DNA of 48,446 nt from an uncultured Sphingobacterium sp. (lineage in GTDB: Bacteria > Bacteroidota > Bacteroidia > Chitinophagales > Chitinophagaceae). Below the pieces are notes generated by a model. The model worked only from the letters and a program-made list of their open reading frames with translations. It was not told the origin of the DNA and searched no databases. A program made the translations under genes and the position numbers. Shown here in pieces: positions 1 to 13,697 of this stretch; within the stretch, counting starts at the first letter, position 1; each line of letters starts with the position of its first letter. The stretch spans positions 1 through 48,446 of the forward strand of contig CAZVYI010000004.1 of assembly GCA_964631755.1 (NCBI GenBank), in the 5' to 3' direction.

Positions 1-811
1 CATCCAATGGAACCAATGGTCTCAATTCTGGTGGAATAACAGGGATATATTGCATAACCATCCACTCAGGGCGGTTATTGATTCTGCTGTTGGCATCACG
101 GAAAGATTCAACTACACTCAAACGCTTTAGTGCATCCGCTTTACGTTGCTGAGAAGTTTCAGTAGCAGCAGCATTTCTAAGTGTATAACTCAATGAATCT
201 AAGTCGATTCTGAGCAATAAATCATGTACAGCTTCAGCGCCCATCTTGGCGATGAACTTATTTGGATCCTCATCAGGAAGATACTGATTCTCTTTTGGAA
301 GAGTATCCAACAAGTCTAAATATTCTTCTTCAGTAAGCAAGTCACCTTGCTTCTTTCCTTTCTCTTCAACAATACCTGGTTGAATTACTACGAAACGCTC
401 ATAGTAAATTATGCTCTCCAGCTTCTTCGAACTGATCCCCAACAGGTATCCAATCTTGTTTGGCAGACTCTTGAAGTACCAGATATGTACCACGGGAACC
501 ACCAACTTGATGTGGCCCATTCTCTCTCTTCTTACTTTCTTTTCAGTTACTTCTACACCGCATCTGTCGCAGACAATGCCTTTGTAGCGTATTCTTTTAT
601 ACTTTCCACAAGCACATTCATAATCTTTCACCGGACCAAAGATCTTTTCACAGAACAAACCGTCGCGCTCTGGCTTGTATGTTCTGTAGTTAATGGTCTC
701 TGGTTTCAGCACTTCACCAAAAGATCTATCAAGGATAGAATCCGGAGAAGCAAGGCTGATGGTAATCTTTGAAAATGAAGATTTCGGGCGATTGTCTTTT
801 TTGATAGCCAT
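1..811 (-). CDS. rpoC: DNA-directed RNA polymerase beta' subunit, N-terminal part (runs off the window start; missing from the ORF track)
   Basis: Manual translation from ATG at 811: [88 protein letters not shown]...RRERMGHI...[14 protein letters not shown]. This is the classic beta' zinc-binding N-terminus. Confidence 0.98.
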
Positions 812-953: not shown

Positions 954-984
954 CAAAGGTAGTCAAAATGGCTGAATTTACAAT
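954..984 (-). promoter_or_regulatory. Bacteroidota sigma-A-type promoter for rpoC
   Basis: Minus strand: ATTG (981-984), a 19-nt spacer, then TACCTTTG (954-961), matching TTTG-N19-21-TAnnTTTG. Confidence 0.7.
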
Positions 985-1011: not shown

Positions 1012-2571
1012 TCACCCTTCCGTTTCCTCTGGCATTCTGTTGCGAAAGTGAGCCGCTATGATTTCCTGAACAGGCACCCCTTTTATTTTGCTTTCAAGCC
1101 AGGAAAGGATGTCCAGGTACATGAATGAGCGACTTTCTGTTGGGCTACCCTCTAACTTTTTCAATTTCTCGAAAAGAGCCTCAAATCCAACTCTTATTTC
1201 CTTTTTTGAATAGCTGAAAGAGCTTTTGATAAATGCAAAAATCTCATTTTCCACTGTTGTCAGGTTCTTGAGCTTAGACATGAATCGGTAAACTGACCTA
1301 ACCTGACTTTCCAGAATTGCATCATTACCAAGCTCATAATGGGAAATCAGGTGTAATAATCTCGCATAACATTGTAGATCAGATCGTAAATCTGCTTTCC
1401 AATGGATGATTTTATTGAGATAAGTAACTGCATTATCAAAATCTCCGCAACCAAAAAACAGGCAAGCAAATTTGTAGTAAAAAACTAAAGTACGGTGTCT
1501 ATCCAGCTGCATTTCAAAACTGGAAAGTTTTTCTTCAATTTCAGGAATGAGTTTCAGTCCTTCAGAAAAACTTCCTTCCAAAAAATGATGATTCAACTTG
1601 GCCAAATAGAGGTATACAAACGACTGTACCTGATTATTGATATTGGCCATCCCCTCCTTAGAAGTGTAAAATGCTTCAAAACGCTCAATGTCTTTTACAA
1701 ATTTTTTATCGTTCCTCAACATGAAATGAGCATTCAAAAGATTGTGCATTCCTTTGATAAAATGTTGAGGTTCAACTTTGATCATTTGAGGTTCTTTGTC
1801 GAACAAATCCACCCAACGCTGACAGTTTCGATAATACGTAAGGAAGTCCTGTAGAATAAATCCATACCAGGCTTGACTTTGATAGTAATAAAGTCTTTCA
1901 TAAAAACCTGAATATTCCTGGGCTTCTGAAGGCATATTGGCATTGTAAAATTGCTTTAACGCCACAATTTCTTCTTCATCCCTAACATGCCCATTTTTTA
2001 TATACCATCCATACAATTGCAGAGCGAGGTTACTGAGCTTGCCAACCATAGTCAATCGCTCATTAAGTTCATTGACTTCATTTGCAAGTTCTTCTGCTCG
2101 GTGTTCAAAACTTCTGGTAATATGAAGTGTTTCAATTTTCTTTTCAAAGAAAAGAGCCTGCACCCAGAAAGTAATTTGGTTGTAACTCTTGGCTAGGTCC
2201 TTTGTCCTTTGCAACAATTTAAGACTTTGGTGGTAAAGACCTTTGTTGTAGAGGATTCTGGCATGTTCAAGTTGTTCGTGCAATTGTATGTCGACTGCCT
2301 GTTCAGATTTGATGAGGCTCAGGCTGACTAAAATTTGCTTATACAAATGGGCTTTTAAGTTAGAGAGTTGCTGTTTTTGAATAGCTGGATTTTTCTTCAG
2401 CAACACATCCTCATCATAAGCCTCCATTTTATCCAATGCATCAAAAAGCAAGGTGATTTTGAGGTCTTCTGCACCTGCATTACGACTCACATACAGCTTA
2501 AAATTGCGTTTTTCCCCTTTTTCAAGAGTTTTTATCAGTTGAAACAATTCATCAGCAGTTCTGTTGGGCAT
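1012..2571 (-). CDS. Conserved hypothetical all-helical/TPR-like protein; candidate transcriptional regulator
   Basis: 519-aa ORF. Basic helical N-terminal domain (LFQLIKTLEKGEKRNFKLY...LSNLKAHLYKQIL) followed by TPR-like repeats (ARILYNKGLYHQSLKLL, ACLFFGCGDFDNAVTYLNKI, LISHYELGND). No signal peptide or TM segment; divergent from leuA. Confidence 0.8.
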   Translation of the reverse strand: MPNRTADELFQLIKTLEKGEKRNFKLYVSRNAGAEDLKITLLFDALDKMEAYDEDVLLKKNPAIQKQQLSNLKAHLYKQILVSLSLIKSEQAVDIQLHEQLEHARILYNKGLYHQSLKLLQRTKDLAKSYNQITFWVQALFFEKKIETLHITRSFEHRAEELANEVNELNERLTMVGKLSNLALQLYGWYIKNGHVRDEEEIVALKQFYNANMPSEAQEYSGFYERLYYYQSQAWYGFILQDFLTYYRNCQRWVDLFDKEPQMIKVEPQHFIKGMHNLLNAHFMLRNDKKFVKDIERFEAFYTSKEGMANINNQVQSFVYLYLAKLNHHFLEGSFSEGLKLIPEIEEKLSSFEMQLDRHRTLVFYYKFACLFFGCGDFDNAVTYLNKIIHWKADLRSDLQCYARLLHLISHYELGNDAILESQVRSVYRFMSKLKNLTTVENEIFAFIKSSFSYSKKEIRVGFEALFEKLKKLEGSPTESRSFMYLDILSWLESKIKGVPVQEIIAAHFRNRMPEETEG

Positions 2572-2692
2572 CGTAATTATCTTTCTTTAAAAACCGCTAC
2601 AGCACTGAATTTCATGTAAATAACAAGCGGTTACAAAGCGTAAATTACGACCCATTTTGGGTAAATCCGAAAAAATGATTGGTTTAAATTAG
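2572..2692. promoter_or_regulatory. Divergent control region with palindromic and phased operator-like motifs
   Basis: Perfect palindrome CGTAA-A-TTACG (2639-2649), variant TGTAAATAACA (2615-2625), GTAAAT (2661-2666), CGTAATTAT (2572-2580), and inverted repeat AACCGCT (2592-2598)/AGCGGTT (2626-2632). Confidence 0.5.
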
Positions 2693-2738: not shown

Positions 2739-3905
2739 ATGGCTGAGAACCGAATTTTCATTTTTGATACTACCCTCAGAGATGGAGAACAAGTACCTGG
2801 ATGCAAATTGAATACAAAAGAAAAAATTGAATTGGCATTGGCATTGGAAGACCTTGGTGTAGATATTATAGAAGCAGGCTTTCCCATTTCAAGTCCGGGT
2901 GACTATGAATCAGTGGAAGCCATCGCAAAAATTATTAAAAATGCGACGGTCTGTGGATTGAGCCGTGCCGTAGAAAAAGATATTGAAGTGGCTGGCGCAG
3001 CTCTAAAACATGCACAAAGGGGAAGAATTCATACCGGAATAGGTACATCAGATTCTCATATCAAAAGTAAATTCAACAGCAACAGAGAAGACATCTTAAC
3101 CAGGGCTGTACAGGCTGTAAAGTGGGCCAGAAATTATACAGATGATGTTGAGTTTTATGCTGAAGATGCAGGAAGAACTGACAATGATTATTTAGCCCGT
3201 GTTGTAGAAGCAGTGATAGCAGCAGGAGCAACTACAGTTAATATACCCGATACAACTGGCTACTGTCTGCCTACACAATATGGCGAGAAGATTGCCTTTT
3301 TAATGAACAATGTGCCGAATATAGATAAAGCAATTATATCCTGTCATTGTCACAATGATCTTGGTTTAGCAACAGCAAATTCTATTTATGGTGCTATCAA
3401 TGGTGCAAGGCAAATAGAATGCACAATTAATGGTTTAGGAGAAAGAGCTGGTAATACATCTTTGGAGGAAGTAGTTATGGTTTTAAAACAACACGCTCAT
3501 CTTGCTTTAACTACAGGAATTGATGCAACTAAACTGAACCCAGTCAGTCAGCTCGTATCCGATACCATGCGCATGCCAGTCCAACCGAATAAAGCAATCG
3601 TTGGAGCCAACGCCTTTTCACATTCATCAGGTATCCACCAAGATGGATTTTTGAAAGATGCACAAACCTATGAAATCATCAGACCAGAAGAAGTTGGTGC
3701 TGAAACATCAAAAATTGTTTTAACAGCAAGAAGCGGAAGATCAGCGCTGGCCTATCGATTTAAAAATCTCGGATTTATATTCGACAGAAATGATATTGAT
3801 GAACTCTATGAGCAATTTTTAAATCTGGCTGATTCATTAAAAGCCGTGGAAGATGAAAACCTCAGTCAACTGGCCAATACGTATCTCAATAAAAAATCCG
3901 CCTAA
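2739..3905 (+). CDS. leuA: 2-isopropylmalate synthase, short form lacking the C-terminal regulatory domain
   Basis: [28 protein letters not shown] and GERAGN motifs; about 388 aa. Start placed at ATG 2739 (MAENRIF) rather than the ORF-track GTG at 2706. Confidence 0.92.
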
Positions 3906-5026
3906 TGATTGTAAACCTCAATATAGCAGTTTTACCCGGAGATGGTATTGGACCAGAAGTTATCCATCAAACAACCCGTGTTCTAGATACTGTAGCTAAA
4001 AAATATGGCCATGTATTCAATTTTGAATTTGGCGATATCGGAGCTGCAGCAATTGAAAAATATGGTGAGCCGCTCACGAAAGAAGTATTGGACAGCTGCT
4101 TGAAGAGTGATGCAATTTTATTTGGAGCCGTAGGTGAACCTCAATACGACCAGAACCCTAATGTTGCAATAAGACCAGAACAAGGCTTGTTTAAGCTGAG
4201 AAAATCACTCGGATTATTCGCCAATGTTCGTCCTGTTAAAGCATACCCCTCTCTTCATTATTTATCTCCACTGAAATCAAAAAACCTGGAAAATGTAGAT
4301 ATCATGATTCTCAGGGAATTAACCGGGGGAATATATTTTGGCAAAAAGGAATTGAGTAATGAAAAGCAAGAAGCATCAGATGTTTGCATCTACAATACAG
4401 ATGAAATCACTCGTGTTACCCATATTGCTTTTAAATATGCTTTGCAAAGAAAACGCAAACTCACACTGGTTGACAAAGCCAATGTGATGGAAACATCAAG
4501 GCTCTGGAGAAAAACTGTTGGAGAAATTGCATTGAACTATCCGGAGGTACAGTTAGAATACATGTACATCGACAACGCAGCAATTCAATTGATCACTAAT
4601 CCAAAGCAATTTGATGTGATTCTTACGGAAAATTTATTTGGCGATATACTAAGCGATGAATCCAGTGCTCTTGCTGGTTCACTAGGATTGCTGCCATCTG
4701 CATCTTTTGGTGAAGGCCCTCCCCTTTTTGAGCCCATCCATGGCTCATTCAATGATGCAAAAGGTAAAGATCTTGCCAACCCCATTGGAGCAATTTTGTC
4801 AGCAGCTATGCTGCTATCACATTTTGGATTAACCGATGAAGCTGATCATGTGAAAGATGCAATTGCCTGGACAATCGAAAATGCATTTGTAACAAAAGAT
4901 CTGGATCCAGTCAATTTTTACTTTACCTCAACGATTGGCGAATTGATATGCGACCACATCATGAACAAAAGCAATGTTTCAATAAATAAAGAAAATATAC
5001 AAATCAGAAAATCAACAATCATTTAA
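3905..5026 (+). CDS. leuB: 3-isopropylmalate dehydrogenase
   Basis: [35 protein letters not shown] and EPIHGS motifs; TAATG overlap with leuA. Confidence 0.96.
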
Positions 5027-5030
5027 AAAT

Positions 5031-6731
5031 ATGGAACTGAATAAATATAGTAAAACAATCACCCAGGATCCGACACAACCTGCTGCACAAGCAATGTTGT
5101 ATGGCATCGGTTTAACAGATGATGATTTGAAAAAACCACAGGTTGGAGTATGTAGTATGGGGTATGATGGAAACACCTGCAACATGCACTTAAACGATCT
5201 TGCAAAAATTGTTAAAGAAAGTGTTTGGGCAAATGAGATGGTGGGTTTAATATTTAATACGATAGGCGTAAGCGACGGAATAAGCAATGGGACAGACGGC
5301 ATGAGATATTCACTGGTTAGCCGCGATTTAATTGCAGATAGTATTGAAGCAGTATGTGGTGCACACTACTATGATGGCATTATTGCAGTACCAGGTTGCG
5401 ATAAAAATATGCCAGGTTCAATCATTGCTATGGGAAGATTGAACCGGCCGTCTATCATGGTATACGGAGGTACAATCGCGCCAGGTCATTACAAAGGAGA
5501 GGAACTCAATATTGTATCAGCGTTTGAAGCTCTGGGTAAAAAAATTGCAGGTAATTTGGATGAAGCAGATTTCAAAGGCATCATCATGAACGCTTGCCCT
5601 GGACCAGGTGCTTGTGGTGGAATGTACACTGCCAATACAATGGCAAGTGCAATCGAAGCCTTAGGAATGAGTTTACCCTACTCATCATCCAATCCAGCGT
5701 TGAGTGATGAAAAAAAACACGAATGCAAGCGCGCGGGAGAAGCTATTAAAATTTTGCTGGAAAAAGATATCAAGCCTTCAGACATCATGACTTACAAGGC
5801 ATTTGAAAATGCAGTAACAGTGATCATGAGCCTGGGTGGGTCAACCAATGCTGTTCTTCATTTAATTGCTATGGCGTGGAGTATCGATATACCATGGACC
5901 CAAGATGATATTCAGCGCATCAGCGATAAGGTACCAGTACTTGCTGACTTAAAACCCAGTGGAAAATATTTAATGGAAGATGTACATAAGATTGGAGGCG
6001 TACCAGCTGTAATGAAATATTTATTAAAACATGGATTCATCCATGGTGATTGTTTAACTGTAACGGGCAAGACTATAGCCGAAAATTTAGCTGATGTACC
6101 GGACCTTGAATTTGAAAATCAGAAAGTCATTCATCCGTTGCAAGAACCTATCAAAGCAACAGGGCATCTACAGATATTATATGGTAACCTTGCTGAAAAA
6201 GGAAGTGTTGCAAAAATCAGTGGTAAAGAAGGAGAGTTTTTTGAAGGACCAGCTCGTGTTTTTGATGGAGAACAAGAATTAATCGCAGGCATTCAAAACG
6301 GCAGAGTAAAGGCCGGAGATGTTGTTGTAATCAGATATGTTGGCCCACGCGGAGGTCCGGGCATGCCTGAAATGCTGAAGCCAACATCAGCAATTATTGG
6401 AGCTGGATTGGGCAAATCTGTTGCTTTGATCACAGATGGACGTTTCAGCGGCGGTACACATGGATTTGTAGTAGGACATATCACACCAGAAGCCTATGAC
6501 GGTGGTTTAATTGCAATGGTTCAGGATGGTGATGCAATTGAATTAGATGTTAAAGAAAGAACCATAACACTTAAGGTTGCTGATGAAGAACTTGCAAAAC
6601 GAAAAGCAGCATGGAAAAAACCACCACTAAATGCGAAGAAAGGATTGCTTTTCAAATTTGCACAGCGTACCACAACGGCAGCTCAAGGATGTGTAACGGA
6701 TGCATTACCGGAAGGCAAGAACCTGAAATAA
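5031..6731 (+). CDS. ilvD: Dihydroxy-acid dehydratase
   Basis: [32 protein letters not shown] and [11 protein letters not shown] motifs. Confidence 0.97.
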
Positions 6732-6743
6732 TAAGTTATTTGT

Positions 6744-8498
6744 ATGAATACAACAATTGATAAGCAATCAAAAATTGATAGCAATAGATATCCGGACGAT
6801 GTTCAAATACAAGAACTTTCTGGTGCTCAAGCAGTATTAAAAGCTTGTATAGCTGAGGGTGTTGACACCATTTTTGGATACCCAGGAGGAGCCATTATGC
6901 CAATTTATGATGCTCTTTACGATTACCGTGATCAGCTGGAACATATTCTTGTTAGACACGAACAAGGTGGTATTCATGCCGGTCAGGGTTATGCAAGAAC
7001 CTCAGGCCGAACAGGTGTTGTTTTTGCCACAAGTGGTCCTGGTGCAACCAATCTAGTGACTGGACTTGCCGATGCATTAATTGACTCAACACCATTGGTA
7101 TGCATCACAGGTCAGGTGTTCGCGCATTTATTGGGGACTGATGCATTTCAGGAAACTGATGTAATCAACATCACCACACCCGTAACCAAATGGAATTATC
7201 AGGTGACAGATGCCAATGAAATTCCAGAAGCACTTGCCAAGGCATTTTACATTGCCAATAGCGGAAGACCTGGTCCGGTTTTAATCGATATCACCAAAAA
7301 CGCACAACTCCAAAAGTTTAATTTTACTGGATACACAACTTGCAATCACATCAGAAGCTACAGACCGAAGCCTGTTGTGAGAAAAGAATATACTGAAGCT
7401 GCTGCAGCCATGATCAACAAGGCAGAGCGACCACTAGTCATTTTTGGGCAGGGTGTAATACTTGGACGTGCTGAAAGTGAATTCAAAGCCTTTATTGAAA
7501 AATCTGGCATGCCTGCAGCCTGGACCATACTGGGCTTGAGTGCATTATCTACAGACCATCCTTTGAATGTTGGTATGCTGGGTATGCATGGTAATTACGG
7601 CCCCAATGTACTCACCAACGAATGTGATGTGTTGATTGCAGTGGGAATGCGTTTTGATGATCGCGTTACAGGTAGACTTGACCGATATGCAAAACAGGCT
7701 AAAGTAATTCATCTGGACATAGACCCTTCAGAAATCGACAAAAACGTAAAAGCAGATGTGCCAGTTTGGGGAGACTGTAAAGAAACACTTCCCATGATTA
7801 CGGATTTACTGGAGAAAAAAGACCACAGCCAATGGTTACAAAAATTCAACGAGTGTACACAAAAAGAGATGGAGGCGGTCATTAATGAAGAACTTCACCC
7901 GTCAACCGATATACTTACCATGGGAGAGGTCATCGAGCAGCTTAATCTGCTCACTAAAGGGGATGCCGTTATCGTTACCGATGTAGGTCAACACCAAATG
8001 GTAGCCTGTCGCTATTCAAAATTTAACCAGTCCAAGAGTAATGTTACTTCTGGCGGCTTAGGTACAATGGGCTTTGCTTTGCCTGCTGCGATTGGCGCAA
8101 AATATGGTGCCAAAGACAGAACTGTTATTGCGGTTATAGGCGATGGCGGTATTCAAATGACCATTCAGGAATTGGGGACCATTATGCAGAACAACATCAA
8201 CGTAAAAATCCTCATCCTGAACAACCGTTTCTTGGGTATGGTAAGGCAATGGCAGGATCTGTTCCATGAAAAAAGATACTCTTTTGTAGACATTGCCAGT
8301 CCTGACTATGTAACTGTAGCAAAAGGATATAAGATTGAAGGAAATTCCGTAGAGAAAAGAAAAGACCTTTTCAGTGCATTGGAAACCATGCTCAATCATG
8401 ATGGGCCATACTTGCTGGAAGTCTTTGTAGGAAAAGAAAACAATGTTTTCCCAATGGTTCCCCAAGGTTGTGGTGTTGGCGAAATCAGACTTAAATAA
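6744..8498 (+). CDS. ilvB: Acetolactate synthase large subunit
   Basis: IFGYPGGAI, RHEQG, TSGPGATN, GMRFDDRVTG, TDVGQHQM and the ThDP motif GDGG...NN; GMVRQWQ. Confidence 0.96.
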   Translation: MNTTIDKQSKIDSNRYPDDVQIQELSGAQAVLKACIAEGVDTIFGYPGGAIMPIYDALYDYRDQLEHILVRHEQGGIHAGQGYARTSGRTGVVFATSGPGATNLVTGLADALIDSTPLVCITGQVFAHLLGTDAFQETDVINITTPVTKWNYQVTDANEIPEALAKAFYIANSGRPGPVLIDITKNAQLQKFNFTGYTTCNHIRSYRPKPVVRKEYTEAAAAMINKAERPLVIFGQGVILGRAESEFKAFIEKSGMPAAWTILGLSALSTDHPLNVGMLGMHGNYGPNVLTNECDVLIAVGMRFDDRVTGRLDRYAKQAKVIHLDIDPSEIDKNVKADVPVWGDCKETLPMITDLLEKKDHSQWLQKFNECTQKEMEAVINEELHPSTDILTMGEVIEQLNLLTKGDAVIVTDVGQHQMVACRYSKFNQSKSNVTSGGLGTMGFALPAAIGAKYGAKDRTVIAVIGDGGIQMTIQELGTIMQNNINVKILILNNRFLGMVRQWQDLFHEKRYSFVDIASPDYVTVAKGYKIEGNSVEKRKDLFSALETMLNHDGPYLLEVFVGKENNVFPMVPQGCGVGEIRLK

Positions 8499-9092
8499 AT
8501 GACGATGAAACAGGAATATACACTGACCATTTATACAGAACACCAGGTGGGTCTATTAAATAGAATCGCCATCATGTTCTCGAGAAGAAAAATAAATATT
8601 GAAAGCCTCAATACCTCCCCATCAGAAGTTGAAGGAATACACCGATTTAACATTGTCATCAATGAAACAGAAGAAACTGTTAGAAAAATCGTAAGGCAAA
8701 TAGAAAAGCAAGTAGATGTATTGAAAGCCTATTTCAATACCAATGAAAATATTATTTGGCAGGAACTTGCCTTATACAAAGTACCTACCGATATTATTGC
8801 AGAAAAAGTAAAAGTGGAGAGGTTATTAAGAACCTATGGTGCAAGAGTTGTTGCTATTCGAAAAGATTATACCATTTTTGAAACAACTGGACAAAGAGAG
8901 GAAACCGACAGGTTAATAAAAGTTTTAGAACCCTATGGCTTAATTGAATTTGTAAGAAGTGCAAGAGTTGCAATCATCAAAGACAGCAAAGGCTTTCATG
9001 AAAAGCTAAAAGAATTTGAAATAACTGAACATCAGGAACATATCATTGACGAACCCATTTCAGCAGAAGAAGCAAATTCAAAAATCGTATAA
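8499..9092 (+). CDS. ilvN: Acetolactate synthase small (regulatory, ACT) subunit
   Basis: GLLNRIAIMFSRRKINIESL ACT domain and QELALYKV; abuts ilvB. Confidence 0.92.
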   Translation: MTMKQEYTLTIYTEHQVGLLNRIAIMFSRRKINIESLNTSPSEVEGIHRFNIVINETEETVRKIVRQIEKQVDVLKAYFNTNENIIWQELALYKVPTDIIAEKVKVERLLRTYGARVVAIRKDYTIFETTGQREETDRLIKVLEPYGLIEFVRSARVAIIKDSKGFHEKLKEFEITEHQEHIIDEPISAEEANSKIV

Positions 9093-9131: not shown

Positions 9132-10184
9132 ATGGCAAAATTAAATTTTGGAGGCACAGAAGAAAATGTAGTCACGCGTGAAGAATTTCCACTGGCAAAA
9201 GCACAGCGGGTACTCAAAGATGAAATTGTGGCAGTAATAGGATATGGCGTTCAAGGACCTGGCCAAGCATTGAACCAAAAAGAAAATGGAATCAATGTTA
9301 TTGTTGGTCAGCGCAAAAATTCAAAGACATGGGACAAAGCAATAGCAGACGGTTTTGTACCAGGAGAAACACTTTTTGAAATTGAAGAAGCATTGGAAAG
9401 AGGAACAATCATTTGCTACCTGCTGAGTGATGCTGCACAGATTGCTATGTGGCCAACTGTAAAGAAGCATTTAACACCCGGAAAAGCATTGTACTTTTCT
9501 CATGGCTTTGGTATCACCTATAATAATCAAACAGGTATCATCCCACCTGCAGATGTAGATGTTTTTCTTGTTGCTCCAAAAGGATCAGGAACATCACTAA
9601 GAAGAATGTTCTTACAAGGTAGAGGACTCAACTCCAGTTATGCCATCTTCCAGGATGCTACTGGCAGAGCAAAAGAAAGAGTTGTCGCACTTGGAATTGC
9701 AATTGGAAGTGGCTACTTATTTGAAACTGATTTCAAAAAAGAAGTATTTAGTGATCTTACTGGCGAAAGAGGAACTTTGATGGGTGCCATTCAGGGTATT
9801 TTCGCAGCGCAATATCAGGTACTAAGAGAAAGAGGCCACTCTCCTTCTGAAGCCTTCAATGAAACTGTTGAAGAATTAACACAATCACTCATGCCATTGG
9901 TTGCTGAAAATGGTATGGATTGGATGTATGCCAACTGCTCTACAACAGCTCAAAGAGGTGCTTTGGATTGGTGGAAAAAGTTCAAAGACGCTACCCTTCC
10001 AGTTTTTAATGACTTGTACGATAGTGTTGCCGCAGGTAAAGAAAGTCAGAGAAGTATTGACAGCAATTCACAGCCCGACTACAGAGAGAAACTTGAAGTT
10101 GAGCTAAAAGAATTGAGAGAGAGCGAAATGTGGCAAGCAGGTAAAACTGTGCGTAGCCTAAGACCTGAAAACCAGGGAAAATAA
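9132..10184 (+). CDS. ilvC: Ketol-acid reductoisomerase (Bacteroidota/fungal Ilv5-like type)
   Basis: VIGYGVQG, FSHGF, VAPKGSG, SDLTGERG, EAFNETVEE and CSTTAQRG motifs. Confidence 0.96.
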   Translation: MAKLNFGGTEENVVTREEFPLAKAQRVLKDEIVAVIGYGVQGPGQALNQKENGINVIVGQRKNSKTWDKAIADGFVPGETLFEIEEALERGTIICYLLSDAAQIAMWPTVKKHLTPGKALYFSHGFGITYNNQTGIIPPADVDVFLVAPKGSGTSLRRMFLQGRGLNSSYAIFQDATGRAKERVVALGIAIGSGYLFETDFKKEVFSDLTGERGTLMGAIQGIFAAQYQVLRERGHSPSEAFNETVEELTQSLMPLVAENGMDWMYANCSTTAQRGALDWWKKFKDATLPVFNDLYDSVAAGKESQRSIDSNSQPDYREKLEVELKELRESEMWQAGKTVRSLRPENQGK

Positions 10185-11522: not shown

Positions 11523-13697
11523 TTGATATCACCATATAAATTATTGCTTGTTCTTTTTCTAATTGCACCTTCATTACTACTGGCGCAAAGAAAAAATCTT
11601 GATTTCAGATACAATATCAAAAAGGCTAGTGCTCCTATTTTGGTTGATGGAGTTATTGAAGACGCTTGGCTAGATACTGAGACAGCTACTGATTTCAATA
11701 TGGTGCTTCCCATGGATACCAGCAAAGCCATGGTGAAGACTGAAGTCAAGATGTCATACGACAATAACCATCTCTATATTATTGCTATCTGTTATTTCAA
11801 AGAGGATCAACCTTATATGGTTGAATCACTTAAAAGGGATTTTAACTTTGGAAAGAACGATAATTTCCTCCTGTTTATGGACCCCTTTGATGATCAGATC
11901 AATGGGTTTACCTTCGGATCCAATGCAGCAGGTGCTCAATGGGATGGACTACTTTTTGACGGAGGAAAGGCGGATTTGAATTGGGATAATAAATGGACAT
12001 CCCACGTGAAAACCTACAAAGACAAATGGATATGGGAAGCATCCATTCCATTTAAAACAATCAGGTATAAAAATGGGATTACCACCTGGGGGATTAATTT
12101 CAGCAGACTGGATATTTCTGTTGCTGAAAAATCTAGCTGGGCACCTGTACCCCGTCAGTTTCCAACTGCCTCACTTGCTTATACGGGTCAGTTGATATGG
12201 GACCAACCCCCACCAAAAGCAGGAACAAATGTTTCAATCATTCCTTATGTACTGGGAGGAATTTCCAAAAACCATCTTGCCGGAACACCAGCATCAACAA
12301 AACAACAAGTTGGACTTGAAGCAAAAGTAGCTGTCACTTCTTCGCTCAATCTAGACCTTACTGTTAATCCCGACTTCTCACAGGTAGAAGTTGACCGACA
12401 AGTTACCAATCTGGATCGCTTTGAACTTTTTTTTCCTGAAAGAAGGCAATTTTTTCTGGAAAATGGAGACCAGGTAAACAACTTTGGATACAACAACATA
12501 AGACCATTTTTTTCAAGAAGAATTGGTTTAAACGCCCCTATTCAATTTGGTGCGCGACTGAGCGGAAAATTAAACAAGGATTGGCGAATCGGTTTTATGA
12601 ATATGCAGACCGACAGGGTACTTGATACAAAAACAGCTTCTCAAAACTATACCGTTTTTGCGTTGCAAAGAAGGGTGTTTTCAAGATCAAATATTGGACT
12701 CATTTTTGTTAACCGCGATCAGGTACTGAGACCAGATGAAAAAGATGCTTCCTATTTTACAAATCCCTACAACAGAAATATTGGAGTTGAATATAATCTT
12801 GCTTCAGCAAATAATCATTGGACAGGCAAAGCAATTTTACTAAAATCATTTTCAAAACAAACCTCAAGCGAAGATTGGGTGCATGCAGCCAACCTTCAAT
12901 ATGCTACAAGAAAATGGTTGATTTCATGGCAACAGGAATATGTTGGAAAGAATTATACTGCAGATGTGGGATTTGTTCCTCGCAAAGATTATTTCCGATT
13001 GGCGCCGGGTATAACCCGATTATTCTTTGTTAAGAATCCGAAAATCGCATCACATTCACTTAAACTGGAATCATTTAATTTCTTCGATAAAAATTTCAAC
13101 TTCACTGAAAACACCACTTATCTCGCCTATACTTTATCACTCAGAGATCAGTCCACTTTTACACAATGGATCGCACGAGACAACATTTTATTACTGCAAC
13201 CATTTGATCCAACAAATTTTGGAAAGGACACATTGGGAAGAGGAACCAAGCACCAATGGAGTGCAATTGGCACAACCTATAACTCTAAACCTCAACAACT
13301 ATTCACCTATAGCATTTCAACCAGATTTGGCGGTTATTACAACAATGGCAAAAGGAGTTTTATCAGTGCTGAAATTGGATACCGTTATCAGCCTTATGTG
13401 AGCTTAACCATGGCCGCTAGTATGAATCATATTTCTTTACCAAGCCCATGGAATCAAACGACATTCTGGTTAGTTGGACCAAGACTGGATATTACATTCA
13501 CGAATAATTTGTTCCTTACCACCTTTGCTCAATACAACAATCAGCAAAACAACATCAATATCAACTCAAGATTACAATGGCGTTATAAGCCAGCATCCGA
13601 CTTATTCATCGTTTATACTGATAACTACTTCCCCGCCCCATTTAATGTTAAAAACAGGGCTGTTGTATTGAAGTTCAATTATTGGTGGAACTTGTAA
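11523..13697 (+). CDS. Exported CBM9-like plus DUF5916-type outer-membrane protein
   Basis: Signal peptide; CBM9-like N-terminus (PILVDGVIEDAW, WEASIPF); TVNPDFSQVEVD...FPERRQFFLE motif; beta-strand-rich C-terminus ending KFNYWWNL. TTG start. Confidence 0.75.
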   Translation: MISPYKLLLVLFLIAPSLLLAQRKNLDFRYNIKKASAPILVDGVIEDAWLDTETATDFNMVLPMDTSKAMVKTEVKMSYDNNHLYIIAICYFKEDQPYMVESLKRDFNFGKNDNFLLFMDPFDDQINGFTFGSNAAGAQWDGLLFDGGKADLNWDNKWTSHVKTYKDKWIWEASIPFKTIRYKNGITTWGINFSRLDISVAEKSSWAPVPRQFPTASLAYTGQLIWDQPPPKAGTNVSIIPYVLGGISKNHLAGTPASTKQQVGLEAKVAVTSSLNLDLTVNPDFSQVEVDRQVTNLDRFELFFPERRQFFLENGDQVNNFGYNNIRPFFSRRIGLNAPIQFGARLSGKLNKDWRIGFMNMQTDRVLDTKTASQNYTVFALQRRVFSRSNIGLIFVNRDQVLRPDEKDASYFTNPYNRNIGVEYNLASANNHWTGKAILLKSFSKQTSSEDWVHAANLQYATRKWLISWQQEYVGKNYTADVGFVPRKDYFRLAPGITRLFFVKNPKIASHSLKLESFNFFDKNFNFTENTTYLAYTLSLRDQSTFTQWIARDNILLLQPFDPTNFGKDTLGRGTKHQWSAIGTTYNSKPQQLFTYSISTRFGGYYNNGKRSFISAEIGYRYQPYVSLTMAASMNHISLPSPWNQTTFWLVGPRLDITFTNNLFLTTFAQYNNQQNNININSRLQWRYKPASDLFIVYTDNYFPAPFNVKNRAVVLKFNYWWNL

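What the first reader, a model, noticed from the sequence alone, without database searches (positions are those of the whole stretch)
1012..2571. 519-aa 'basic helical head + TPR-like body' protein: candidate new regulator family for branched-chain amino acid genes
Seen: a soluble, apparently all-helical protein with no enzyme motif, transcribed divergently from leuA-leuB-ilvD-ilvB-ilvN-ilvC across 167 bp. The roughly 90-aa basic N-terminal domain ends in a recognition-helix-like segment (QQLSNLKAHLYKQI), followed by TPR-like repeats. The leu-ilv leader shows no terminator or attenuator, and this LeuA lacks its leucine-feedback domain, so the usual controls are missing. Established: HTH+TPR is the layout of ligand- or peptide-sensing RRNPP-type regulators, and divergent placement is typical of local regulators. 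Unverified recall: similar Bacteroidota proteins sit next to branched-chain 2-oxoacid dehydrogenase genes. Inference: a sensor of BCAAs, keto acids or acyl-CoA that is unrelated to Lrp, CodY or IlvY.
Basis: partly seen in the sequence, partly recalled or inferred. Interest (0 to 1): 0.8.

Follow-up and report, generated by a model that had tools for sequence, protein, structure and literature searches.

The report
RusR-like regulator of leucine genes
This gene encodes a distant relative of the Bacteroides ribose-locus activator RusR that sits head-to-head with the leucine-making genes across many Bacteroidota, beside two conserved DNA boxes, and is likely the untested switch that controls branched-chain amino acid synthesis in these bacteria.

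Summary
The ORF is real (519 aa, minus strand, 167 bp from leuA) but is not a wholly new family. It matches the RusR/BT2802 family end to end (E 1e-43, 150 bits, cut-off 550), so it is a distant, uncharacterised branch of it. The branch is tied to leucine genes: 45 of 48 close loci face leuA or leuC. In 201 genomes, 46 of 52 with a short LeuA (no feedback domain) carry it, 45 adjacent, against 2 of 73 with full-length LeuA. The gap holds two copies of a conserved box, 67, 78 or 89 nt apart, one about 60 nt before the predicted leuA start site and one over the gene's own start codon. The model is all-helical, with a Rap/NprR/MalT-like repeat body and a predicted homodimer (0.70, best control 0.01). 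A helix-turn-helix, DNA binding and the ligand were not shown. Best reading: a dimeric activator of leu-ilv that represses itself and is likely switched off by leucine or a related metabolite. This scan reported the same system three times before on other genomes. Three targeted paper searches found no description.

The parts
1012..2571 (-). Gene for the 519-aa RusR-like protein (P0001)
   Evidence: NF058569 E 1e-43 over residues 6-504; single copy in the assembly
2302..2571 (-). N-terminal five-helix head (residues 1-90), predicted DNA-binding part. Family-wide motif E20-K21-R22-x-F24-K25; clade-specific K66, Q68, N71, K73 on helix 66-90
   Evidence: helices; conservation; DNA binding inferred, no HTH match
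1996..2298 (-). Residues 92-192, predicted homodimer interface directly behind the head
   Evidence: score 0.70, best control 0.01
1033..2064 (-). Residues 170-513, TPR-like superhelix, predicted sensor domain
   Evidence: Rap Z 19.9, NprR 18.2, MalT domain III 17.4; weak Pfam TPR_8 at 364-392
2564..2576 (+). Box A (TTGGGCATCGTAA), overlapping the gene's own start codon; predicted autoregulation site
   Evidence: top site in the region for a matrix trained on other families' central boxes (16.4 bits); 1 of 1166 genome starts reaches 10 bits
2631..2643 (+). Box B (TTACAAAGCGTAA, near-palindrome TTACR-N3-YGTAA), centred about -60 from the predicted leuA start site; predicted activation site
2685..2692 (+). 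-7-like promoter element TAAATTAG (Bacteroidota consensus TAnnTTTG), 46 nt after box B; predicted start site about 2697
   Evidence: 44-47 nt in 48 of 79 leu-linked loci; consensus from PMC6847099
2739..3905 (+). leuA, short form without the allosteric domain
3905..5026 (+). leuB
5031..6731 (+). ilvD
6744..8498 (+). ilvB
8499..9092 (+). ilvN (ilvH)
9132..10184 (+). ilvC
   Evidence: ORF; name from my own knowledge of the sequence

Best explanation
The gene is a distant RusR/BT2802-family member that sits head-to-head with leuA beside two conserved DNA boxes, and it likely encodes a predicted homodimeric transcription activator of the leuA-leuB-ilvD-ilvB-ilvN-ilvC operon that would be switched off by leucine or a closely related metabolite. 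Proposed working: two subunits pair through residues 92-192 (predicted), which would bring the two heads together to read a 13-bp near-palindrome (inferred). A dimer on box B, about 60 nt before the predicted start site, would recruit the housekeeping polymerase (inferred from position and from RusR's positive role). A dimer on box A, over its own start codon, would limit its own synthesis (inferred). Spacings of 67, 78 and 89 nt keep both boxes on one face of the helix, which suggests contact between the two dimers (inferred). The repeat body would bind the signal, as MalT domain III binds maltotriose (recalled). Because this LeuA lacks its leucine-binding domain, transcription would take over the control that feedback gives elsewhere (inferred). 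My odds by step: local transcription regulator of this operon 0.8; activator given that, 0.75. Ligand: leucine or another BCAA about 0.45, a keto acid or isopropylmalate about 0.3, something else about 0.25.
For: Homology: full-length match to NF058569; 27% identity over 507 columns, E 1e-23, to a RusR-like protein that lies upstream of a pfkB kinase and a permease. RusR deletion abolished growth on ribose and left about 10% of rus activation (10.1101/574913, passages). Linkage: 44 of 48 close loci face leuA and 1 faces leuC. The same holds in seven families, one of them outside the window's class by the tool's kinship label, while the downstream side changes. In family f28 the gene lies between leuB-leuD-leuC-leuA and ilvD-ilvB-ilvN-ilvC in 10 of 10 loci fetched. 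All 46 leu-linked sequences in the tree fall in one clade of 67 (support 1.0); none of the 30 outside it is leu-linked. Short LeuA: 46 of 52 genomes carry the gene, 45 adjacent; long LeuA: 2 of 73. Boxes: start-codon box >=6 bits in 71 of 79 leu-linked loci against 4 of 44 others; central box >=10 bits in 70 of 79 against 1 of 44; spacing 66-68 nt in 61, 77-79 in 6, 89-90 in 5. In the own genome, 1 of 878 sites >=8 bits has both a partner box and a -7 element, and it is this one. Structure. Dimer: score 0.70, best of 3 controls 0.01, runs agree in at least 73% of contacts, pLDDT at least 79; the mark was reached by 20 of 30 solved homodimers and 1 of 23 solved monomers.
Against: No HTH or other known DNA-binding fold was matched (uninformative). 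No binding, expression or knockout data exist for this clade in what I read. [quoted passage not shown] Box B alone is weak in this window against a matrix from other families: 7.4 bits, reached by 174 of 2000 shuffles. Central-box scores are circular for the 35 training loci, and 38 of the 79 loci are close freshwater kin. Seven of the 35 more distant leu-linked loci score under 10 bits. The own leuC-leuD operon on contig C77 has no box, here or in the same-genus loci of the same type. Six of 52 short-LeuA genomes lack the gene. Physical linkage alone would produce the co-occurrence, and kin are not independent. Lack of the regulatory domain need not mean lack of feedback: homocitrate synthase is inhibited at its active site (PMC9860122, passage). 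The dimer pass could reflect likeness to solved RRNPP dimers.
Confidence: 0.6

Rival explanations
1. Same protein and boxes, but it is a repressor: with leucine bound it occupies both boxes, loops the DNA and shuts both promoters.
For: Two in-phase boxes flank the divergent promoters, as in looping repressors. End-product repression is the usual logic for biosynthetic operons.
Against: Box B lies upstream of the promoter core (about -66 to -54), not over it. The one tested relative acts positively.
Confidence: 0.15
2. It is a wider amino-acid or nitrogen-status regulator. The boxes serve mostly its own control, and the leu operon is one target or a long-inherited neighbour.
For: Three clade members face glnK-amtB or gltB and one lies just upstream of gltB. 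Twelve Chitinophagaceae-type copies have lost the leu link, and three of them (L083, L156, L157) keep the box-to-promoter spacing in front of unrelated genes.
Against: Only one full site architecture in the own genome. The nitrogen-linked copies lack the boxes. Box B keeps a fixed distance to the leuA-side promoter while its distance to the gene's own start changes in helical steps.
Confidence: 0.1
3. It is not a DNA-binding protein but a separate regulatory subunit that binds short LeuA and restores leucine feedback at the protein level.
For: Near one-to-one co-occurrence with short LeuA; TPR-like folds bind proteins; no HTH match.
Against: It does not explain the conserved paired boxes or RusR's effect on transcription. 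The gene also occurs with long LeuA (2 genomes) and in genomes without a LeuA match (3 genomes). The head is among the most conserved parts of the whole family.
Confidence: 0.07
4. It is an RRNPP-type quorum sensor that binds a re-imported peptide.
For: The best structural matches are Rap, NprR, PlcR and AimR.
Against: Identity to these is 8-13%, and LGN and proteasome repeats score nearly as well. The small ORFs in the flanking gaps do not look like signal-peptide genes (by eye). The targets are housekeeping biosynthesis genes.
Confidence: 0.03

Closest known systems
RusR (BT2802) of Bacteroides thetaiotaomicron; NCBIfam NF058569 BT_2802_fam
   Same: Full-length homology (residues 6-504 against profile 4-501 of 502, E 1e-43). 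Shared head motif LxxSLxKxEKRxFK. About 500 aa and adjacent to a metabolic operon.
   Different: 150 bits against a cut-off of 550. 20-22% identity in the multiple alignment to RusR-like proteins. It is divergent from amino-acid biosynthesis genes, not upstream of ribokinase genes. Helix 66-90 and the polar residues of the body differ.
RRNPP regulators (Rap, NprR, PlcR, AimR)
   Same: Small helical head plus TPR-like superhelix (Z 19.9, rmsd 4.2, 295 aligned for Rap; 18.2, 5.7, 302 for NprR; AimR 14.1 over residues 18-499); predicted dimer.
   Different: No sequence match to any PDB chain with the single protein. No HTH matched. About 100 extra residues form the predicted dimer interface. No peptide gene seen. 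Bacteroidota, not Firmicutes.
MalT domain III
   Same: Repeat superhelix of a bacterial activator (Z 17.4, rmsd 4.7, 301 aligned); that it senses a small molecule is recalled.
   Different: No STAND ATPase domain and no C-terminal LuxR-type HTH in this protein.
Lrp, CodY, IlvY, and yeast Leu3 (all recalled)
   Same: Proposed role: metabolite-responsive control of branched-chain amino acid genes. IlvY is also divergent from its target.
   Different: No Pfam or NCBIfam match to these families. An all-helical model does not fit their alpha/beta sensor domains.

Membership tests
NF058569 BT2802 family (strict, ribose utilisation) | Score above the curated cut-off of 550 bits | tested here: not met
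   150.1 bits; 0 of 201 and 0 of 251 genomes over the cut-off; B. thetaiotaomicron control over it
NF058569 BT2802 family (strict, ribose utilisation) | Lies upstream of ribokinase and permease genes | tested here: not met
   Neighbours are leuA and rpoC; the ribokinase context appears only for L175-L177
RusR-like superfamily (broad) | Full-length homology to BT2802-like proteins | tested here: met
RusR-like superfamily (broad) | Conserved head motif EKRxFK | tested here: met
   E20, K21, R22 and F24 invariant in 20 of 20 rows of A2
RusR-like superfamily (broad) | Needed for expression of the adjacent operon | not testable with these tools
   Shown for RusR only
RRNPP | TPR-like superhelical sensor domain | tested here: met
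RRNPP | N-terminal HTH (or Rap-type three-helix bundle) | tested here: inconclusive
   No profile match; stand-alone head model pLDDT 66, matches generic
RRNPP | Adjacent gene for a secreted signalling peptide | tested here: inconclusive
   Small ORFs of 20 aa or more listed in both gaps; none looks like a signal-peptide precursor by eye; no predictor run
RRNPP | Peptide binding in the TPR groove | not testable with these tools
   none
Lrp / CodY / LysR (IlvY) | Family HTH and sensor domains | tested here: not met
   No match at E<=1 in Pfam or NCBIfam; model has no strands

The most novel reading that the evidence does not exclude
RusR is the one tested member of a large Bacteroidota family of one-component metabolite sensors with a DNA-binding head unlike catalogued HTH families. 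One ancient branch took over leucine control when LeuA lost its allosteric domain, replacing enzyme feedback and attenuation by a looped two-box switch, and offshoots were re-used for ammonium assimilation genes.
Probability: 0.4. Interest if true: 0.8.

Novelty: new variant of a known kind. Interest (0 to 1): 0.62.

Why it matters
My searches found no transcription factor described for branched-chain amino acid synthesis in environmental Bacteroidota. This locus names a candidate, its target operon and a predicted 13-bp site with coordinates, so one binding assay and one deletion can settle it. It would also give the RusR family (6677 representatives at 50% identity with E<=0.001) its first operator and a route to its first ligand and DNA-binding structure. 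It further suggests how a biosynthetic enzyme can lose its feedback domain without losing control.

Tried and rejected
HTH identification: Pfam and PDB profile searches with the head alignment A2 gave nothing relevant. A resemblance by eye to sigma region 4 scored no better than five control slices in hhalign. The single-sequence model of residues 1-95 was poor and its fold search returned generic hairpins. The Atlas gave only unnamed or TPR clusters for a homologue, and 0.77 for its head.

Function tied to rpoC: rejected. rpoC follows directly in 38 of 48 close loci but in none of the other families, and the 200-bp gap has its own TAnnTTTG at 954-961 on the minus strand.

Box A as translation context: rejected. 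Only 1 of 1166 starts reaches 10 bits.

Box B as the gene's own -7 element: disfavoured. It mismatches the consensus, and a second copy overlaps the start codon.

Regulon extension to the second leuC-leuD operon: no box found.

Attenuator: none.

Fitness data: Mucilaginibacter YX-36 has a nicotinate phosphoribosyltransferase row, not such a gene, before ilvD in the part of Table S2 read, so it is uninformative. No paper held my recalled Echinicola tags for this locus (the tags are from memory).

RNA runs: none was listed.

Two family-level searches for true RusR found none (0 of 1; 0 of 66). The tree holds no RusR-like row, is midpoint-rooted, and left out 32 of the 38 freshwater loci and all proteins under 440 aa, so no order of events is claimed as tested.

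Full report
OBSERVATION. The ORF at 1012-2571 (-) encodes 519 aa and lies 167 bp from the leuA start at 2739. leuA, leuB, ilvD, ilvB and ilvN pass family cut-offs; ilvC and rpoC are named from my knowledge of their sequences. LeuA is 388 aa with no allosteric domain. The leuA leader has no terminator, no unusual fold and no conserved leader peptide. The assembly is 1.87 Mb, 92% complete, and holds one copy of the gene. Close relatives are mostly labelled Chitinophagaceae or Bacteroidota.

FAMILY. Pfam gives only a sub-threshold TPR_8 at 364-392, and the single protein has no sequence match in the PDB. NCBIfam gives an end-to-end match to NF058569, the BT2802 family, at E 1e-43 and 150 bits against a cut-off of 550. 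BT2802 is RusR. [quoted passage not shown] PMC12596196 (passages) recovers a RusR module by expression analysis. Three RusR-like proteins found here (400-430 bits) lie upstream of a pfkB kinase and a permease, and one aligns with the query at 27% over 507 columns. The wider family is large: 6677 representatives at E<=0.001 and matches in 84 of 301 Bacteroidota genomes. Of 14 control genomes, only B. thetaiotaomicron rings. The protein is therefore a distant, uncharacterised branch of a barely known family, not a new family.

NEIGHBOURHOOD. Of 48 loci, 44 face leuA, 1 faces leuC, 1 has no upstream DNA, 1 faces glnK-amtB-glutamine synthetase III and 1 is unrelated. I fetched 80 further regions around matches, chosen by hand to cover best hits, second copies and weak hits. 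The link to leuA or leuC holds in families f1, f2, f5, f7, f10, f12 and f28, the last outside the window's class by the tool's label, while the downstream gene changes. In f28 the gene sits inside the cluster leuB-leuD-leuC-leuA / ilvD-ilvB-ilvN-ilvC in 10 of 10 loci, one with a 164-aa ORF between it and ilvD. In a tree of 97 proteins, one clade of 67 (support 1.0) holds all 46 leu-linked rows, one row facing ilvE-leuD-leuB, three nitrogen-linked rows, 13 unlinked copies and four named reference proteins; none of the 30 rows outside is leu-linked. In 201 genomes, 125 have LeuA. Of 52 with the short form, 46 carry a clade member (E<=1e-80) and 45 of these are adjacent; of 73 with the long form, 2 do. 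These genomes are kin and the genes are physically linked, so this is a pattern, not a statistical test.

DNA BOXES. The gaps share one layout. De novo sampling on 35 loci, with the start-codon region excluded, found TT[AG]nAnAn[CT]GTAA[AT]. In the freshwater clade it reads as the near-palindrome TTACR-N3-YGTAA. A second copy overlaps the gene's own start codon: at least 6 bits in 71 of 79 leu-linked loci against 4 of 44 other loci. The central copy reaches 10 bits in 70 of 79 against 1 of 44, which is circular for the training loci. Spacing is 66-68 nt in 61 loci, 77-79 in 6, 89-90 in 5 and other in 7, which are steps of one helical turn. A TAnnTT[C/T/A]G element follows the central box by 44-47 nt in 48 of 79; the phylum's -7 consensus is TAnnTTTG (PMC6847099 and PMC9723704, passages). 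In the window, box A is 2564-2576, box B 2631-2643 and the -7-like element 2685-2692, which places box B near -60. A matrix trained on 22 loci from other families ranks box A first (16.4 bits) and box B second (7.4 bits) in the region, but box B alone is reached by 174 of 2000 shuffles. Box A is not general start-codon context: 1 of 1166 starts reaches 10 bits. Genome-wide, 1 of 878 sites has both a partner and a -7 element, this one. The second operon on contig C77 (leuC-leuD-a 507-aa LeuA-family enzyme with allosteric domain-leuB) has no box here or in the same-genus loci of that type. The three nitrogen-linked copies also lack the boxes.

STRUCTURE. AlphaFold2 with 128 sequences gives pLDDT 94.7, pTM 0.92 and helices only. 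Residues 170-513 match Rap (Z 19.9, rmsd 4.2, 295 aligned), LGN (18.2), NprR (18.2), MalT domain III (17.4), PlcR (15.5) and AimR (14.1, residues 18-499), all at 8-13% identity (Foldseek agrees weakly). This shows a shared repeat fold, not a function. Two copies of residues 3-500 score 0.70 as a dimer against 0.01 for the best of three controls, with at least 73% contact agreement and pLDDT at least 79. The mark was reached by 20 of 30 solved homodimers and 1 of 23 monomers, and likeness to solved dimers may contribute. The interface is residues 92-192 plus 269-273, 310-316 and 355-359, directly behind the heads. The head (residues 6-32 and 65-90) is the most conserved part across the family. 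It carries a family-wide EKRxFK patch and clade-specific K66, Q68, N71, and its helices 54-60 and 66-90 are arranged as an HTH could be, but no search confirmed one. Clade-specific polar and aromatic residues in the body (E147, R158, W235, W253, D357, H359, K367, R481, Y485) are candidates for a ligand site; several also fall in the predicted interface.

MECHANISM. Shown: homology to RusR, conserved divergent linkage, co-occurrence with short LeuA, and paired boxes at fixed distances. Predicted: fold and homodimer. Inferred: DNA binding, activation from box B, autorepression at box A, contact between dimers, and the ligand. I favour activation because box B lies upstream of the promoter core and the one tested relative is positive. 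I favour leucine or another BCAA as an off signal because an enzyme without its allosteric domain would not let isopropylmalate report leucine levels. That step is weak: homocitrate synthase lacks the domain yet is inhibited at its active site (PMC9860122, passage). Rivals are a looping repressor (0.15), a wider nitrogen or amino-acid regulator (0.10), a protein-level subunit of LeuA (0.07) and a peptide sensor (0.03).

NOVELTY. Searches for this regulator in print returned nothing relevant: 7 listed; PMC13440311 read as passages, outline and one part of its supplement; 0 papers; 0 papers. led to PMC13759103 (passages, nothing on it). Subscription journals are largely outside the library. This scan noted the same system three times on other genomes; those are unchecked notes, seen after my own linkage and motif results, and are not counted as evidence. 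Verdict: a new variant of a known kind, with a specific and cheap test. Interest 0.62.

Noticed in passing
window 2-811 (-) and 954-961 (-): rpoC is preceded by this gene rather than by rpoB, as in 38 of 48 close loci, and has a perfect TAnnTTTG (TACCTTTG) in the 200-bp gap, so it likely has its own promoter.
   Followed up: partly
L185:1604-6315 (G000:C77): The window's operon lacks leuC-leuD. They lie in a second operon, leuC-leuD-(507-aa LeuA-family enzyme with allosteric domain, probably citramalate synthase)-leuB, whose upstream region has a different conserved stretch (TTTTTCGGAAATTTGC-like) in same-genus genomes.
   Followed up: partly
L046:1-4474; L094:6570-8391; L096:6596-11256; L097: Members of the same clade face glnK-amtB-(glutamine synthetase III or gltB) or gltB and lack the leu boxes; L097 faces ilvE-leuD-leuB-asnA and precedes gltB. 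Possible nitrogen-assimilation offshoot.
   Followed up: partly
L079, L081-L089, L156, L157: Many family-f1 genomes carry a second copy (50-56% identical) nested in the leu clade but with unrelated neighbours; all 10 in the main subgroup change Y365 to N or D. L083, L156 and L157 keep the 66-67 nt and 46 nt spacings.
   Followed up: partly
L175:2974-3066; L177:2962-3059: In two RusR-like loci a TG[TC]AAAAA stretch lies 36 nt before a TAnnTTTG in front of the kinase gene, one helical turn closer than in leu loci. Seen by eye in two loci only.
   Followed up: no
L047:6001-7515: A copy in two ORF pieces between leuC and a carboxyl-transferase gene; may be a sequencing frameshift or a decayed gene.
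   Followed up: no
window 11523-13697 (+): 724-aa protein with CBM9-like and DUF5916 domains, convergent with a transaldolase-like gene.
   Followed up: no
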